The translations under genes were made by a program, and so were the position numbers. Shown here one piece after another: positions 25,103 to 29,816 of a stretch of DNA of 64,000 nt (position 1 is its first letter; every line of letters starts with the position of its first letter). The DNA lies in assembly GCA_041495205.1 (NCBI GenBank), contig JBGQCF010000003.1:57960-121959 (forward strand), written 5' to 3'. The notes beneath the pieces were generated by a model. The model did not search any database, was not told the DNA's origin, and was given only the letters and a program-made list of their open reading frames with translations. Source of the DNA: Gammaproteobacteria bacterium. GTDB lineage: Bacteria > Pseudomonadota > Gammaproteobacteria > Burkholderiales > JAHFRG01.

Positions 25103-26164
25103 TCACTCAACCAGCCTGACCTGTGCATCTCCCGCTGTCATGTTGCCTATCCTGGCTGCGTAATTGAAACCCTGGTGTCTAAAAACTTCCAGTACCTGCG
25201 GCGTCGCGTCCTCACTGCAGGCCACCAGCAAACCACCGCTGGTTTGCGGATCGCATAACAGTTTCTTCTGCCACTCCGGCATCGCTTGAGGCAACACCAC
25301 TTGCTTGCCGTAGCCCGCCCAGTTGCGCTCGATCGCGCCGGGACCGACACCCTGCTTTGCCAAATCCAACGCTGCGGGAAGAATGGGCAACGCATCAAAG
25401 TGGATTTCCGCGCCCACTCTGGAACCGCGGCAAATCTCCAGTAAATGCCCGAGCAAACCGTATCCCGTAACATCGGTGAGCGCATGCACGCCAGCCATGT
25501 CGGCAAGCACCGGGCCCGCGGTATTAAGCTGCGTGGCGCTCTCCAGCATTTGCCGGTAACCCTGTTGCGACAATTTGCCTTTTTTCAGCGCCGCGCTCAT
25601 GATGCCAATCCCCAGCGCTTTACCGATAACCAGCGCATCCCCTGCGCGTGCAGTGTCGTTGCGCTTTACTTTGTCGGGGTGGACCAGACCCAGGCCCACC
25701 AGACCGTAAATAGGCTCTGGCGAGTCAATGGAATGACCTCCCGCTATGGGAATCCCCGCTTGCGTGCAAACCGCTTCACCGCCAGCCAAGATGCGCTGAA
25801 TCACCGCCACAGGGAGCTTGCCGATCGGCATGCCGACGATAGCAAGCGCCAGAATCGGACGTCCGCCCATCGCGTAAATGTCGGAGAGCGCATTGGCGGC
25901 GGCGATGCGGCCGAAATCATAAGGGTCATCCACTATCGGCATGAAAAAATCGGTGGTCGCGATCAGCGCCTGCGTTTCATTCAACCGGTAAACCGCAGCA
26001 TCATCGCTCGATTCGGTGCCGACCAGCAGATCAGGCCAGGTTTTGCCGATTGCCGATTGTGACAGGATTTCGCTTAACAGCGCCGGCGCGATTTTGCATC
26101 CGCAGCCGCCGCCATGCGAAAATGCAGTCAACTTGATATCACCAATTTCAGCCAATTGGTTCAT
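25103..26164 (-). CDS. selD: Selenide, water dikinase SelD (Cys-type)
   Basis: LTAFSHGGGCGCKIAP N-terminal active-site loop and AIR-synthase-like fold motifs (DDAAVY, TTDFF). Confidence 0.93.
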   Translation of the reverse strand: MNQLAEIGDIKLTAFSHGGGCGCKIAPALLSEILSQSAIGKTWPDLLVGTESSDDAAVYRLNETQALIATTDFFMPIVDDPYDFGRIAAANALSDIYAMGGRPILALAIVGMPIGKLPVAVIQRILAGGEAVCTQAGIPIAGGHSIDSPEPIYGLVGLGLVHPDKVKRNDTARAGDALVIGKALGIGIMSAALKKGKLSQQGYRQMLESATQLNTAGPVLADMAGVHALTDVTGYGLLGHLLEICRGSRVGAEIHFDALPILPAALDLAKQGVGPGAIERNWAGYGKQVVLPQAMPEWQKKLLCDPQTSGGLLVACSEDATPQVLEVFRHQGFNYAARIGNMTAGDAQVRLVE

Positions 26165-26169
26165 TTAAG

Positions 26170-27243
26170 ATGCTTCCTTTGCAATCTCGCGATGGAATAA
26201 ACGTAACACAGTTGCGCGACTTTGACGAGTTGATTGACGTGCGTACTCCCGAGGAGTTCAGCGAAGATCACATCCCGGGCGCCATCAACTGCCCGGTGCT
26301 TGACGATGCCGAAAGAAAACAGATCGGCACAATATATAAACAAGTCTCCAGCTTCGAAGCGAAAAAAATCGGCGCAGCCTTAGTGGCGCGCAATATCGCA
26401 CATCATATTGAAAAGATTTTTATCACACGGCAAAAAGACTGGCGGCCCCTGGTGTATTGCTGGCGCGGTGGAAACCGCAGCGCGGCGATGGTGCATGTTC
26501 TCGAACAAGTCGGCTGGCATGCCGGAAGGCTGCAAGGGGGCTACAAATCTTATCGCGCGGCAGTAATTGAGGGTTTGTTGAAGTTGCCCGGACAATTCCA
26601 GTTTCGCGTCATCTGCGGCCCAACCGGCTCAGGCAAAAGCCGGCTGATACAGGCGCTTGACCTGCTTGGCGTGCAAGTGCTGGACCTGGAGCGGCTTGCC
26701 GCGCACCGCGGCTCGGTGCTCGGCGGCCTGCCCGATGAGCCGCAGCCCACGCAAAAAATGTTTGAAAGCCTGATTTGGTCGAAGTTGCAGCGTTTCGATC
26801 CCAAAGAACGGGTTTATGTCGAATCCGAGAGCAAGAAAATCGGTAACGTAAGGGTGCCGGACGTATTGCTCGATGCGATGTGGCGCGGACATTGCATCCG
26901 CATCGAAGCCGACGCAAGCTTGCGCGCGAAGTTACTCAAAGAGGAATACCAGCATTTCCTGCGCGATCCCGAAACACTAATGCAGAAACTGGAATTTTTG
27001 ACTACACGTTTTGGCCACGAATTAATCACCCGCTGGAAAGGCTATGTGGCCGACCGGCAATGGGACGCTTTGGTAATGGAGTTGCTGGAGCGGCATTACG
27101 ACCCGGCTTACAGGAAATCAACCCTTAAACATTATCCTCAGTATCAGGATGCGGCGATTTTACATGTCAATACAACGGGCGATGCCGAAATACAGCGCCT
27201 TGCGCAAACCATTATTTCAGGGAACAAACAAAAATCAAAATGA
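26170..27243 (+). CDS. selU: tRNA 2-selenouridine synthase (SelU/MnmH/YbbB)
   Basis: Rhodanese domain with CWRGGNRS active-site loop, followed by P-loop GPTGSGKS. Confidence 0.92.
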   Translation: MLPLQSRDGINVTQLRDFDELIDVRTPEEFSEDHIPGAINCPVLDDAERKQIGTIYKQVSSFEAKKIGAALVARNIAHHIEKIFITRQKDWRPLVYCWRGGNRSAAMVHVLEQVGWHAGRLQGGYKSYRAAVIEGLLKLPGQFQFRVICGPTGSGKSRLIQALDLLGVQVLDLERLAAHRGSVLGGLPDEPQPTQKMFESLIWSKLQRFDPKERVYVESESKKIGNVRVPDVLLDAMWRGHCIRIEADASLRAKLLKEEYQHFLRDPETLMQKLEFLTTRFGHELITRWKGYVADRQWDALVMELLERHYDPAYRKSTLKHYPQYQDAAILHVNTTGDAEIQRLAQTIISGNKQKSK

Positions 27244-28118
27244 AGCTCGCACTCAAAATAGATGTGCAGACTTTGCGCGGCACCCATCAAGGCGTGCCGC
27301 GTCTTGTGGAACTACTGCAAAAGCATAACGCCACAGCCAGTTTTTTCTTCTGCGTCGGACCTGACCATAGCGGCCGCATGTTGAAACGGCTGTTGCGCGG
27401 CAATCTGCTTAAATATTATGGATTGCCGTCGCTGTTTTACGGCACTTTGCTGCCGGGACCCGACATCGGCAAGCAATGCGGCGATATCATGCGCAAAGCG
27501 CGCGCAGCCGGGTTTGAAGTCGGCTTGCAGGCGTATGACGCTGCGGCATGGTCCAATAAGGCGGCGCAAAGCGAGGCTGGCTGGAGCGAAAAACAAATGC
27601 GCCTGGGGCGCGAGCGTTTTGCCGAAATTTTCGGTGATCCCCCCGCAGCCCACGCAGCGGCGGGTTGGCAGATGAACCTGTACGCCTATCGTTTGACCCA
27701 GCGGTTGGGTTTTGCCTATTGCAGCGACACACGCGGCCGCTGCCCGTTCATTCCCATCTACCGTGGCGAAATCATCGCCTGTCCACAGCTTCCCACCACC
27801 CTGCCGACGCTCGATGAAGCGATCAAGAGCGCCGGAGTGGAGGCGGCCGCGGATTATGTGTTGAATCTCAGCGCCAACCCGCCCGCGACCGGCCATCTTT
27901 ACACCTTGCGTGCTGAGCTTGAAGGCATGACACTCGCGCCGCTTTTCGAGCGCCTGCTAAAAGGCTGGCGCGCGCAAGGCTATGAACTGGTGGCAACCCG
28001 CGACCTTTATGCCTCGCTGGAAACCAGGAAGCTTCCACGGCACGAAGTGGCGTTCGGCAAATTGCCCGGCGCCAGCGAAACGCTTATGCTGCAAACCAAG
28101 GAATTCCTCGCCGGGTAA
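27240..28118 (+). CDS. ArnD-like polysaccharide-deacetylase-fold protein with substituted catalytic residues
   Basis: Collinear similarity to E. coli ArnD as I recall it (ALKIDVQTLRGTHQGVPRLVELL..., AAGW, YTLRAELEG). ATGA overlap with the selU stop. Confidence 0.8.
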   Translation: MKLALKIDVQTLRGTHQGVPRLVELLQKHNATASFFFCVGPDHSGRMLKRLLRGNLLKYYGLPSLFYGTLLPGPDIGKQCGDIMRKARAAGFEVGLQAYDAAAWSNKAAQSEAGWSEKQMRLGRERFAEIFGDPPAAHAAAGWQMNLYAYRLTQRLGFAYCSDTRGRCPFIPIYRGEIIACPQLPTTLPTLDEAIKSAGVEAAADYVLNLSANPPATGHLYTLRAELEGMTLAPLFERLLKGWRAQGYELVATRDLYASLETRKLPRHEVAFGKLPGASETLMLQTKEFLAG

Positions 28119-28391
28119 GCCGTCTGCAGACCCCAGGCCACGATTGTCAAGCGCAAAGGGGTGTAATACACTGCGACAAACGATAATGGTAAACACTGCC
28201 TTCCTCGACTTTGAAACCCCCTCAACCGGGAACAAGGTTTTTCGCCTCTCCTTCTCCACAGGCAAAAGTTCTCATCATTTATTTTTCTCCAAGGGGGCTC
28301 TGCGGCGCGAGTGGCGCAGTGTGAAAGTGCCCGGTCAAGCACAGGAAGTTGTACGTACGAACTTTGAAATAATCATTTAACGGAAAACAAA

Positions 28392-29816
28392 ATGACCCAG
28401 AGAAAACCCGCATCTGTCGTCACCCGCCTGCACACCAAAACCAAGCTGTTCGTTCTCGATACCAACGTCCTGATGCACGACCCGACCAGCCTGTTCCGTT
28501 TCCAGGAACACGATGTCTACCTGCCGATGGCCACCCTGGAAGAGCTCGACCACAATAAAAAAGGCATGTCGGAAGTAGCGCGCAACGCACGTCAGGCGAG
28601 CCGTTATCTCGACGAAATCGTGAGCGATGCTTACACCAATATGGAAGATGGCATTTCCCTTGAAACGCACGGTGGAAAGGATGCAACCGGGCACTTGTTC
28701 CTGCAAACCAAGGTGATCAACGGCGACCTTCCCGCCCATCTTCCCGGCGGATACAGCGACAACCAGATCATCAGCGTGGTAAAGCACTTGCAGGAGACCT
28801 ATTCGGGGCGACACGTGATTCTCGTCAGCAAAGACATCAACATGCGCATCAAAGCGCGCGCGCTGGGATTTGCCGCCGAGGATTATTTCAACGACAAGGT
28901 GCTCGAAGATACCGATTTGCTGTATACCGGGTTCCAGGAATTGCCCGAGGATTTCTGGGACAAGCACAGCAATGAAATGGAATCGTGGCAGCAGTCCGGC
29001 CATACCTTCTACCGCGTGAGCGGGCCACTCTGCCCCAGTTTGCTGGTTAACGAGTTTATCTATCAGGAGATCGACAAGCCGTTTAATGCCCGCGTCAAGG
29101 AACAGAGCGGCAAGACCGCCGTACTGGAAACGCTCAAGGATTACACGCACCAGAAGAATAACGTGTGGGGCATCGCCGCGCGCAACCGCGAACAGAACTT
29201 CGCGTTGAATTTGCTGATGAACCCGGATATCGATTTCGTCACCCTGCTTGGACAAGCAGGCACGGGAAAAACCCTGCTGACCCTGGCCGCGGGCTTGATG
29301 CAAACTCTGGAGCATAAGGTTTATACTGAGATAATCATGACGCGGGTCACCGTGCCTGTGGGCGAAGATATCGGTTTCCTTCCGGGTACCGAAGAAGAGA
29401 AAATGACCCCGTGGATGGGGGCGTTGGAGGATAACCTGGACGTCCTTAACAAAACCGATGACGAAGCGGGGGAATGGGGGCGCGCCGCCACTCGTGATTT
29501 GATTCGTTCGCGCATCAAGGTAAAATCACTGAACTTCATGCGCGGCCGCACCTTTATTAATAAATTTTTGATTATTGACGAAGCCCAGAACCTGACGCCG
29601 AAACAGATGAAAACACTGATTACCCGCGCCGGGCCCGGCACCAAAGTGGTGTGCGTTGGCAATATCGCGCAAATTGATACGCCTTATCTCACTGAAGGCA
29701 GCTCCGGTTTGACTTACGTAGTGGACCGCTTTAAAGGCTGGTCGCACAGCGGTCATGTCACGCTGCTGCGCGGGGAAAGATCGCGGCTTGCCGATTACGC
29801 AGCGGGGGTATTGTGA
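28392..29816 (+). CDS. PIN-domain plus PhoH-like ATPase (YlaK family)
   Basis: N-terminal PIN (FVLDTNVLMHD, SDNQII), C-terminal PhoH ATPase with Walker A GQAGTGKT and IIDEAQN. Confidence 0.88.
   Translation: MTQRKPASVVTRLHTKTKLFVLDTNVLMHDPTSLFRFQEHDVYLPMATLEELDHNKKGMSEVARNARQASRYLDEIVSDAYTNMEDGISLETHGGKDATGHLFLQTKVINGDLPAHLPGGYSDNQIISVVKHLQETYSGRHVILVSKDINMRIKARALGFAAEDYFNDKVLEDTDLLYTGFQELPEDFWDKHSNEMESWQQSGHTFYRVSGPLCPSLLVNEFIYQEIDKPFNARVKEQSGKTAVLETLKDYTHQKNNVWGIAARNREQNFALNLLMNPDIDFVTLLGQAGTGKTLLTLAAGLMQTLEHKVYTEIIMTRVTVPVGEDIGFLPGTEEEKMTPWMGALEDNLDVLNKTDDEAGEWGRAATRDLIRSRIKVKSLNFMRGRTFINKFLIIDEAQNLTPKQMKTLITRAGPGTKVVCVGNIAQIDTPYLTEGSSGLTYVVDRFKGWSHSGHVTLLRGERSRLADYAAGVL

What the first reader, a model, noticed from the sequence alone, without database searches (positions are those of the whole stretch)
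27240..28118. ArnD-like deformylase fold with all canonical catalytic/metal residues replaced, translationally coupled to tRNA 2-selenouridine synthase
The 292-aa protein is collinear with E. coli ArnD as I recall that sequence. At the CE4/NodB motifs it differs as follows.
- IDVQT instead of IDVDT, losing the metal-binding Asp
- GLQAYDAAAW instead of GLHAWDHHAW, losing both His of the HxxxH motif
- YTLRAELEG instead of YTIHAEVEG, losing the motif-5 His
An intact ORF with a systematically altered active site suggests a pseudoenzyme or a changed chemistry. Its ATG overlaps the selU stop (ATGA, 27240-27243). No other arn genes are nearby. One speculation follows from the substrates. ArnD binds a polyprenyl-phosphate-linked sugar, and SelU uses geranyl diphosphate in its geranylation/selenation cycle. 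The ArnD-like protein might therefore handle the isoprenoid substrate or product for SelU.
Basis: partly seen in the sequence, partly recalled or inferred. Interest (0 to 1): 0.55.

Follow-up and report, generated by a model that had tools for sequence, protein, structure and literature searches.

The report
Dead ArnD left from lost operon
The gene after selU encodes a catalytically dead copy of the lipid-A enzyme ArnD, left behind when the rest of its pathway was deleted; it is still kept by selection, here and in several other bacterial lineages, so it probably has an unknown non-enzymatic job that does not depend on SelU.

Summary
The ORF at 27240-28118 is a full-length ArnD homologue (PDB 8T0J E 1e-42; model TM 0.81/0.87). 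It has D10Q, H97Q, H101A and H224R, and its loop is 9 residues shorter.

The SelU reading is not supported. In related Burkholderiales the gene order is selD< selU> arnT-arnEF-arnB-arnC-arnA(FT)-arnA(DH)-arnD-prxQ-phoH2. In the window's genus arnT to arnA are gone, so arnD abuts selU. The adjacency therefore comes from a deletion.

- All 22 loci with selU directly upstream carry degenerate ArnD, with different replacements in each lineage.
- 93 of 97 loci with the arn operon upstream keep the canonical residues.
- The tree of the neighbouring phoH2 gene rejects a single origin of the deletion class (AU p 3.7e-6).
- dN/dS is 0.12-0.27, far below 1. The adjacent prxQ has decayed to fragments.
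- Dead ArnD copies also occur in at least 7 complete genomes without selU.
- No SelU fusions were found.

Best reading: a recurrent ArnD-derived pseudoenzyme that keeps the fold and non-metal family residues, with an unknown function that needs neither the arn pathway nor SelU. Databases still name it a deformylase. Interest is moderate. The scan had noted the arn-bcp-PhoH order elsewhere, but not dead ArnD.

The parts
27240..28118 (+). arnD* : 292-aa catalytically degenerate ArnD homologue (P0001)
   Evidence: NCBIfam ArnD NF011923 scores 201 bits, below the 382 cut-off. Pfam PF01522 scores 18.6, below 23.1. PDB 8t0j E 1e-42. AF2 pLDDT 90.7; Foldseek 8t0j TM 0.81/0.87. dN/dS 0.15-0.26 within the genus.
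27267..27269 (+). codon 10, Gln in place of the MT1 metal-binding Asp
   Evidence: D is 100% conserved in 109 live ArnD.
27528..27542 (+). codons 97-101, QAYDA in place of the MT2 HxxDH (both metal His lost; D100 kept)
27909..27911 (+). codon 224, Arg in place of the MT5 catalytic His
   Evidence: R is the commonest replacement among 103 degenerate homologues.
27396..27413 (+). site of the 9-10 residue deletion in the loop between residues 40 and 72 (32 residues here; 40-42 in every live ArnD)
   Evidence: This is the lowest-confidence part of the model (pLDDT 60-74).
26170..27243 (+). selU/mnmH, tRNA 2-selenouridine synthase; its stop overlaps the arnD* start (ATGA at 27240-27243)
25103..26164 (-). 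selD, selenide water dikinase, divergent from selU
   Evidence: NF002098, 530 bits.
28119..28391 (+). spacer holding decayed fragments of prxQ (28279-28350 matches PrxQ aa 121-144 at 58% identity; weaker match at 28186-28248 to aa 1-21). Relatives have an intact prxQ here.
   Evidence: E 1.8e-4 against the whole window. Synteny.
28392..29816 (+). phoH2 (PIN-PhoH), the conserved downstream anchor of the synteny

Best explanation
**What it is.** The gene is the last survivor of an L-Ara4N (arn) lipid-A modification operon. In the ancestor that operon lay between selU and prxQ-phoH2.

**How it arose.** A deletion removed arnT, arnE/F, arnB, arnC and both arnA genes, and placed arnD directly behind selU. 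Without a pathway, ArnD lost its metal-dependent deformylase machinery:
- the MT1 Asp;
- both MT2 His;
- the MT5 His;
- part of the 40-42 residue loop.

**What it keeps.** It keeps the NodB fold and nearly all other family-specific residues: E93, W104, W115, W143, R151, S162-D163-x-R165-G166, P169, P172, the CPQLPTTLPTLDE segment and E193. Purifying selection maintains it as an expressed protein.

**Proposed mechanism (inferred, not shown).** It is a non-catalytic ArnD-derived protein, probably soluble. It uses the retained groove or surface to bind a ligand or a partner. This role existed alongside catalysis in live ArnD and needs neither the arn pathway nor SelU. Arg224 probably fills the former metal site.

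**What is shown and what is inferred.** Shown: the origin by deletion, the loss of catalytic residues, the selection and the recurrence. Inferred: the binding role.
For: **Origin by deletion.**
- L096 reads selD< selU> arnT arnE/F arnC arnA-FT arnA-DH arnD prxQ phoH2.
- The same order, with arnB, is seen in about 60 betaproteobacterial loci. selU lies directly upstream of arnT in L026, L044, L045, L056, L058, L084, L096 and L154.
- The window and its 9 congeners read ybbP< ybbA< selD< selU> arnD* (prxQ) phoH2 fimV dnaB<.
- G000 has one ArnD-like gene and no arnT, arnC or arnA orthologue.

**Loss of catalysis tracks loss of the operon.**
- 22 of 22 selU-adjacent copies are degenerate: 11 from the genus and 11 from families f4, f7, f44 and f54.
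- 93 of 97 copies with arnA upstream are canonical.
- Replacements differ by lineage: DQQDAR, DRHNSR, DDRDYN, ESLDHR, EHHDRR, DTQDPR and others.
- Positions at least 90% conserved in 109 live copies but under 50% in 103 degenerate ones are D10, H97, H101, D192, H224, the loop residues G55 and F56, and A47, G196, T222 and R278.
- The loop is 40-42 residues in all live copies. It is 34 or fewer in 47 of 103 dead copies, and in no live copy.

**Recurrence.** On the neighbouring phoH2 gene, deletion-class loci are interspersed with operon-bearing ones. Starred branches force at least 3 changes, and the AU test rejects one clade (p 3.7e-6). L051 and L159 are further, recent cases nested among live ArnD.

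**Selection.**
- NG86 dN/dS is 0.15-0.26 in the genus at dS up to about 1.4, against 0.08-0.24 for selU (mostly 0.10-0.19).
- It is 0.12-0.27 in all but one of the other dead-copy pairs compared; one pair (L161-L166) gives 0.49. Live ArnD gives 0.05-0.21.
- No stop codon interrupts any of the 10 congeners' copies; two of them (G004, G009) carry a larger internal deletion (267 aa).
- The adjacent prxQ has decayed to fragments in the same genome.

**Fold.** pLDDT 90.7; the best structural match is StArnD.

**Independence from SelU.**
- 7 complete genomes with dead ArnD lack selU.
- selU is present in 25 of 32 dead-copy genomes and in 32 of 46 live-copy genomes.
- Dead copies in f27, f6, f25 and f58 sit in unrelated contexts.
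Against: - **No direct evidence of any function or ligand.** The binding role is inference from conservation.
- **ArnD's own tree does not support recurrence.** It puts nearly all degenerate copies on one side of a branch (SH-aLRT 93). That tree therefore does not exclude one ancient origin. I attribute this to accelerated evolution and long-branch attraction, but did not prove it. The AU test group was named after the tree had been seen.
- **Retained residues leave room for a metal-independent reaction.** D8 and D100, MT3 Arg165, H219, E226 and E228 are kept.
- **Tight spacing to selU.** It is -4 to +9 nt in all congeners whose junction was read. A contig from an RNA library, from a relative about 91% identical, spans the junction. 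Both show probable co-expression with selU, so a lineage-specific link is not excluded.
- **Retention is not universal.** Some relatives have selU followed directly by prxQ-phoH2 or by phoH2.
Confidence: 0.6

Rival explanations
1. **Changed chemistry.** The protein is still an enzyme. It would be a metal-independent hydrolase or transferase on a new substrate, using retained residues (D8, D100, R165, H219, E226/E228). PuuE allantoinase is such a case: a metal-independent member of the same NodB1.2 structural subclass.
For: - PuuE (3cl6) and its relatives are among the nearest folds after ArnD.
- The CE4 review describes 3CL6 as non-metal-dependent, with altered MT1 and MT2 (PMC10967932).
- 33 positions are at least 85% conserved across 103 degenerate homologues.
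- Purifying selection is seen.
Against: - The former catalytic positions carry different residues in each lineage: Q/R/P/N/S/A at 10; L/R/H/Q at 97; R/P/A/S at 101; R/N/S/Q at 224.
- The MT5 His and the MT4 Asp, which PuuE keeps, are the positions that are lost.
- No new residue is conserved only in dead copies. Everything conserved in them is also conserved in live ArnD.
Confidence: 0.15
2. **First reader's idea.** The ArnD-like protein is an accessory of SelU. It would bind or hand over the isoprenoid (geranyl-PP or geranylated intermediate) in the selenation cycle, at least in this genus.
For: - The ATGA overlap, and spacing of -4 to +9 nt, are seen in all congeners whose junction was read.
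- selU adjacency is kept in 5 families.
- An RNA-library contig of a relative spans the junction.
- ArnD's natural substrate is polyprenyl-phosphate linked (established knowledge).
Against: - Deletion of the intervening arn operon explains the adjacency.
- Spacers of 43-669 nt occur in other families.
- Dead ArnD is present in 7 complete genomes without selU, and lies far from selU in many others. selU is no commoner with dead copies than with live ones.
- No SelU fusion was found among longer proteins.
- The loop specific to live, lipid-handling ArnD is shortened here.
- Most selU genes have no such neighbour.
Confidence: 0.08
3. **Functionless relic.** The ORF persists because it is young, or because its DNA carries signals or translational coupling needed by neighbours (selU upstream, phoH2 downstream). 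The protein itself would not matter.
For: - It arose by operon decay.
- True ArnD pseudogenes with internal stops exist in the order: G042, G305, G214 and G103.
- Omega is about 1.5-2 times higher than in live ArnD.
- Some lineages lost arnD entirely.
Against: - dN/dS is 0.12-0.27 over dS greater than 1 in several independent lineages (one other pair gives 0.49), close to that of selU.
- No stop codon interrupts any of the 10 congeners' copies, while the neighbouring prxQ decayed to fragments.
- 33 positions are at least 85% conserved across 103 degenerate homologues.
- Dead copies persist in unrelated genomic contexts.
Confidence: 0.1

Closest known systems
ArnD / PmrJ, 4-deoxy-4-formamido-L-arabinose-phosphoundecaprenol deformylase (Salmonella structure 8T0J; NCBIfam NF011923)
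   Same: - Collinear over 280 residues (E 1e-42; 33% identity over the structural alignment).
- Same NodB-type fold (TM 0.81/0.87).
- Keeps the MT3 Arg, D8, D100 and the CPQ-PTTLPT-DE segment.
- Descends from an arnD that closed an arn operon.
   Different: - Lacks the MT1 metal Asp, both MT2 His and the MT5 His.
- The loop is 32 residues, not 40-42.
- Scores 201 bits, below the 382-bit cut-off.
- There is no arn pathway in the genome.
Live ArnD of Burkholderiales/Betaproteobacteria (302-aa clade, e.g. L096, L026, Sulfurisoma sediminicola L069)
   Same: - 53-65% identical to the window's protein and its nearest relatives.
- Same position upstream of prxQ-phoH2.
   Different: - They keep KIDVDT, GIHxWDH and LHAELEG.
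- They follow arnA in an intact operon, or coexist with an arn operon elsewhere.
CE4 pseudoenzymes of Bacillus (BA3943, PDB 7bkf/6hpa; BA0150, PDB 4m1b)
   Same: - NodB fold retained with catalytic or metal residues lost.
- Recovered among the structural matches.
- 4M1B is called a pseudoenzyme in PMC10967932.
   Different: - A different CE4 subclass, only 12-13% identical.
- Extracytoplasmic peptidoglycan-deacetylase relatives.
- Not derived from ArnD and not linked to the loss of an operon.
PuuE allantoinase (3CL6), metal-independent NodB1.2 enzyme
   Same: - Same structural subclass as ArnD.
- Shows that the fold can work without the metal triad.
   Different: - PuuE keeps the MT4 Asp and the MT5 His.
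- In dead ArnD these positions are among those lost or variable.

Membership tests
ArnD deformylase (NF011923 equivalog) | Score at or above the curated cut-off of the equivalog model | tested here: not met
   201.4 bits against a cut-off of 382. A live betaproteobacterial ArnD (L096) also scores below it, at 250 bits, so this feature alone is weak.
ArnD deformylase (NF011923 equivalog) | NodB-type fold collinear with solved ArnD | tested here: met
   8t0j E 1e-42 over residues 2-280. AF2 pLDDT 90.7. Foldseek E 1e-24, TM 0.81/0.87.
ArnD deformylase (NF011923 equivalog) | Metal triad: MT1 Asp plus two MT2 His | tested here: not met
   Q10, Q97 and A101. These positions are 100% D/H/H in 109 live homologues. 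Motif roles are taken from PMC10967932.
ArnD deformylase (NF011923 equivalog) | MT5 catalytic His | tested here: not met
   R224.
ArnD deformylase (NF011923 equivalog) | 40-42 residue loop between residues 40 and 72, invariant in length in live ArnD | tested here: not met
   32 residues here. All 109 live copies have 40-42.
ArnD deformylase (NF011923 equivalog) | Arn pathway partners (ArnT, ArnC, ArnA, ArnB) in the operon or the genome | tested here: not met
   Only weak paralogous hits in G000: ArnT 48 bits, ArnA-DH 50 bits, ArnC 137 bits. None in the window.
ArnD deformylase (NF011923 equivalog) | Deformylase activity on Und-P-Ara4FN | not testable with these tools
   Needs an enzyme assay.
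Pfam Polysacc_deac_1 (PF01522, CE4/NodB) | Score at or above the gathering threshold | tested here: not met
   18.6 bits against 23.1. Sister live copies carry PF01522.
   Dead ArnD occurs in 7 complete genomes without selU. selU is present in 25 of 32 dead-copy genomes and 32 of 46 live-copy genomes.
   The arn operon lies between selU and arnD in relatives.
Pseudoenzyme (catalytically dead homologue kept by selection) | Catalytic residues lost, ORF intact, dN/dS well below 1 across species | tested here: met

The most novel reading that the evidence does not exclude
ArnD has a second role that does not need catalysis, and this role is what survives in the dead copies. Burkholderiales lineages have at least three times deleted the arn pathway yet kept arnD under purifying selection while stripping its active site. 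If so, live ArnD of polymyxin-resistant bacteria would also carry this unrecognised function, for example as a partner or ligand sensor in envelope or undecaprenyl-phosphate metabolism. The dead copies would then form a widespread, unnamed pseudoenzyme family.
Probability: 0.3. Interest if true: 0.65.

Novelty: new variant of a known kind. Interest (0 to 1): 0.5.

Why it matters
- **Annotation.** NCBI and JGI records name proteins of the window's dead-copy clade (P0006, P0008, P0010) '4-deoxy-4-formamido-L-arabinose-phosphoundecaprenol deformylase' or the like, and JGI does so for other degenerate clusters. Using arnD as a marker would therefore overstate the capacity for L-Ara4N lipid A modification (polymyxin/CAMP resistance) in environmental Burkholderiales.
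- **Evolution.** This is a natural replicated experiment. The same enzyme is repeatedly turned into a conserved pseudoenzyme after its pathway is lost. The catalytic positions and one loop are released from constraint, while 33 other positions stay conserved.
- **ArnD biology.** The pattern points to an untested second function of ArnD.
- **Method.** The case shows that translational coupling and recurrent adjacency can come from the collapse of an operon, without any functional partnership.

Tried and rejected
Contexts came from the search for related loci, the genome search and the fetch from genomes instead.
- **The ArnD structure paper** (PMC10914315) is not held. Residue roles therefore rest on the 8t0j alignment and the CE4 review PMC10967932. 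The idea that the loop is a membrane or lipid element is my inference.
- **Complex prediction, SelU + ArnD*,** with paired 19-row alignments: no answer, score 0.00. It counts neither for nor against binding.
- **An apparent SelU-ArnD* fusion** (649 aa) in L004 and L005 was an artefact of my ORF-extension script. A TAA stop lies 9 nt before the ATG.
- **The 'longer' protein search** gave fusions only with neighbours (ArnT, ArnC, ArnA-DH, PrxQ). None was with SelU or a rhodanese domain.
- **No arn gene remnants** were found in the longer selU-arnD* spacers of other families.
- **RNA runs** hold only short contigs from relatives about 91% identical, in libraries that may contain DNA. They cannot show transcription or its level in this organism.
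- **Literature searches** for ArnD pseudoenzymes, and for selenouridine synthase with polysaccharide deacetylase, found nothing relevant.
- **The PDB hits to aldehyde:ferredoxin oxidoreductase** (E 1e-3) are short and were disregarded.
Full report
**1. Observation**

The ORF 27240..28118 (+) encodes 292 aa (P0001). Its ATG overlaps the TGA of the upstream gene as ATGA. The upstream gene, 26170..27243, is tRNA 2-selenouridine synthase (NF008752, 488 bits). selD lies divergently at 25103..26164.

P0001 matches the NCBIfam ArnD equivalog over its whole length, but at 201 bits against a cut-off of 382. It falls below the Pfam PF01522 threshold.

Against solved Salmonella ArnD (8t0j, E 1e-42) the alignment shows:
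- IDVDT > IDVQT
- GLHAWDHHAW > GLQAYDAAAW
- YTIHAEVEG > YTLRAELEG
- a 9-residue gap after LLRG

In the CE4 motif scheme (PMC10967932) these changes remove the MT1 metal Asp, both MT2 His and the MT5 His. The MT1 catalytic Asp (D8), D100 and the MT3 Arg (R165) remain.

An AlphaFold model built on a 50-row alignment is confident (pLDDT 90.7, pTM 0.91). Its best structural match is StArnD (TM 0.81/0.87). An independent sediment metagenome carries the identical sequence across the junction and the whole ORF.

**2. Nearest relatives**

The 5.8-billion-protein search returns two tiers.
- Nine proteins are 73-97% identical and 292-295 aa long. All carry the same substitutions and the same deletion.
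- Thousands of 302-aa betaproteobacterial proteins are about 60% identical. They keep KIDVDT, GIHxWDH and LHAELEG.

The window's GTDB family holds one genus of 10 species. All 10 have the arrangement selD< selU> arnD*.
- Eight share D-Q-Q-D-A-R at positions 8/10/97/100/101/224.
- Two are 267 aa with a larger deletion and read D-R-H-N-S-R and D-P-H-N-S-R. These are G004, and G009, which is an unpublished genome; the identical protein is public as L073.

So even inside the genus the replaced positions are not fixed.

**3. Why it sits next to selU**

Eighty loci from GTDB species genomes were mapped with probe proteins. A widely conserved order emerged: arnT, arnE/F, arnB, arnC, arnA-formyltransferase, arnA-decarboxylase, arnD, prxQ, phoH2 ... 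dnaB<.
- The gene identities were confirmed by NCBIfam on L096 and L026.
- Where enough upstream sequence is present, selU lies directly before arnT in several loci: L026, L044, L045, L056, L058, L084, L096 and later L154. In L096, selD is divergent from selU, as in the window.
- The window reads ybbP< ybbA< .. selD< selU> arnD* [273 bp] phoH2 fimV dnaB<.

The window's arrangement is therefore the same locus with arnT to arnA removed.

The genome (98.9% complete) has no other ArnD-like gene and no arnT, arnC or arnA orthologue. The 273-bp spacer still contains fragments of prxQ: 28279-28350, 58% identical to PrxQ aa 121-144, plus a weaker N-terminal fragment. One congener, G004, still has prxQ next in line there.

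Two congeners, G008 and G002, additionally carry a complete second arn operon elsewhere. Its live ArnD sits on a long, distant branch.

**4. Survey of the order**

Of 401 genomes sampled from the window's GTDB order, 242 have an ArnD homologue. I fetched 15-kb contexts for 80 of the weaker matches and classified all loci held.

| Context of the ArnD copy | Canonical D-D-H-D-H-H | Not canonical |
|---|---|---|
| arnA directly upstream | 93 | 4 |
| selU directly upstream | 0 | 22 |
| No such neighbour ('orphan') | 28 | 24 |

- Of the four exceptions with arnA upstream, those I looked at are a D100N variant and a hit cut by a contig end; I did not examine the others.
- The 22 selU-adjacent copies are 11 from the genus and 11 from families f4, f7, f44 and f54. 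They show many different patterns: DDRDYN, DQQNNS, DDRDHN, DGGGHN, EHHDRR, ESLDHR, DTQDPR, DDRDCS.
- Four of the canonical orphans that I checked sit in genomes with an arn operon elsewhere.

L051 reads ybbP< ybbA< arnD prxQ phoH2, with no arn genes and no selDU at the locus. It has lost only two residues (D10N, H101R) and nests among live ArnD. It is a recent, independent case; its genome holds a second arnD beside arnA on another contig.

The exhaustive representative search points the same way. Of the 150 best 50%-identity clusters, only 40 are canonical. About 70 full-length ones are degenerate in diverse ways.

**5. One event or several?**

ArnD's own tree places nearly all degenerate copies on one side of a branch. 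That is what accelerated evolution would produce, and it does not exclude a single origin.

The adjacent, slowly evolving phoH2 gene gives a different picture. Deletion-class loci are interspersed with operon-bearing loci. For example, the f44 copies are sister to L058 and L045, and the f4 copies are sister to L026, L041 and L049.
- Starred branches force at least three changes.
- The AU test rejects a single clade (delta lnL 71, p 3.7e-6). The caveat is that I named the group after seeing the tree.

I conclude that the loss of arnT-arnA with retention of arnD happened at least three times. Complete loss also happens. In ArnD-less relatives selU is followed directly by prxQ-phoH2 (f50) or by phoH2 (f31; also f26, which rests on the unpublished genome G039).

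**6. Is it alive?**

Pairwise NG86 dN/dS values:

| Gene set | dN/dS |
|---|---|
| arnD*, within the genus (dS up to about 1.4) | 0.15-0.26 |
| selU, same pairs | 0.08-0.24 (mostly 0.10-0.19) |
| phoH2, same pairs | 0.03-0.07 (apart from pairs with the truncated L011 fragment) |
| Dead copies, other lineages | 0.12-0.27 (one pair at 0.49) |
| Live ArnD | 0.05-0.21 |

Constraint is thus relaxed by roughly 1.5-2 fold but remains strong. The decay of the neighbouring prxQ in the same genomes is an internal control for what disuse does here.

I compared 109 live with 103 degenerate homologues.
- The positions conserved only in live copies are D10, H97, H101, D192 (MT4), H224, G55/F56 in the loop, and A47, G196, T222 and R278.
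- Thirty-three other positions stay at least 85% conserved in dead copies. They include E93, W104, W115, W143, R151, S162, D163, R165, G166, P169, P172, Q183-P189 and E193.
- The loop between residues 40 and 72 is 40-42 residues long in every live copy. It is 34 or fewer in 47 dead copies and 20 or fewer in 21.
- Sixty-seven of the 103 dead copies carry Arg or Lys at a former metal or catalytic position (R224 here). This fits a side chain filling the empty metal site. That is an inference: I could not measure the model.

**7. The SelU hypothesis**

For the hypothesis:
- The overlap or very short spacer occurs in all congeners whose junction was read (-4 to +9 nt).
- Adjacency persists in five families.
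- A contig from an RNA library, from a relative about 91% identical, spans the junction.

Against the hypothesis:
- The adjacency has a sufficient historical cause (section 3).
- Spacers of 43-669 nt occur in other families.
- Dead ArnD sits far from selU, or on other contigs, in f25, f27, f47 and f58, in unrelated contexts.
- Seven complete genomes with dead ArnD have no selU. selU is about as frequent with live ArnD (32/46) as with dead ArnD (25/32).
- No SelU fusion exists among the longer proteins.
- The loop that only live ArnD needs is truncated here.

A complex prediction gave no answer and is not used. I put the SelU-accessory reading at about 0.08, mostly as a genus-specific possibility.

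**8. Comparison with known systems, and novelty**

The protein works like a pseudoenzyme of the CE4/NodB superfamily, as described for Bacillus BA3943 and BA0150. It belongs by descent to the ArnD family, but it fails the family's defining catalytic features, so it should not be filed as a deformylase. PuuE allantoinase shows that the subclass can work without a metal. This keeps a changed-chemistry rival alive (0.15). The lineage-to-lineage variability of the former active site argues against it.

I found no paper describing dead ArnD homologues. Earlier notes of this scan had recorded the arnT-E/F-B-C-A-A-D order, and arnD followed by bcp and PIN-PhoH, in other genomes. These agree with my synteny map. 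None mentions degenerate ArnD.

**9. Verdict**

- The thing itself is a recurrent, selected, catalytically dead ArnD left by operon loss. I class it as a new variant of a known kind, of moderate interest (0.5).
- Its positive function remains unknown. My commitment to a non-catalytic binding role inherited from ArnD is an inference, at about 0.6 for the whole statement.

**Unpublished genomes**
- G009: the 267-aa variant. It is also supported by the public L073 and by G004.
- G039: the f26 example of selU followed by phoH2.
- G213 and G294: these enter only the tallies.

Noticed in passing
window 28186-28350: The 273-bp spacer between arnD* and phoH2 holds decayed fragments of the peroxiredoxin gene prxQ/bcp (24 aa at 58% identity, plus a weaker N-terminal piece). 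prxQ follows arnD* at this position in one congener (G004) and in most relatives.
   Followed up: partly
G008:C67:6218-13416 (L013) and G002:C150:31373-38572 (L020): Two species of the window's genus carry, besides the dead copy next to selU, a complete second arn operon (arnT...arnC...arnA-DH...arnD). Its ArnD has canonical residues and sits on a long branch far from the dead clade, so it may have been acquired horizontally.
   Followed up: partly
L051 4117-5031 (= G010/G367:C234); second copy L103: An independent, early-stage case. The syntenic arnD (ybbA< arnD prxQ phoH2) has lost only D10 (to N) and H101 (to R). A second arnD lies beside arnA-DH on another contig of the same MAG.
   Followed up: partly
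proteins P0006, P0008, P0010, P0123, P0288 etc.: NCBI and JGI name the dead copies '4-deoxy-4-formamido-L-arabinose-phosphoundecaprenol deformylase' or 'undecaprenyl phosphate-alpha-L-ara4FN deformylase'. This is probably a systematic mis-annotation.
   Followed up: no
P0313 (543 aa), P0319 (593 aa): Some longer proteins join an ArnD-like domain to a PrxQ/AhpC-TSA domain. Others join it to ArnC, ArnT or ArnA-DH pieces. They may be real fusions of neighbouring genes or gene-calling read-through.
   Followed up: partly
G042:C10:305864-306757, G305:C14:301316-302212, G214:C10:8215-9171, G103:C1:1182392-1183303: ArnD homologues with one internal stop codon. These may be true pseudogenes (or recoded or mis-assembled) elsewhere in the order. 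G214 and G103 still have the arn operon upstream.
   Followed up: no
L154 (G108:C13:299685-300802): In an operon-bearing locus with selU upstream, the arnD match is split into two overlapping pieces (aa 1-136 and 92-290). This suggests a frameshift or an insertion.
   Followed up: no
L096 3402-4813: This arn operon has no arnB between arnE/F and arnC, unlike L026 and most other loci, which have a 1.2-kb arnB there.
   Followed up: no
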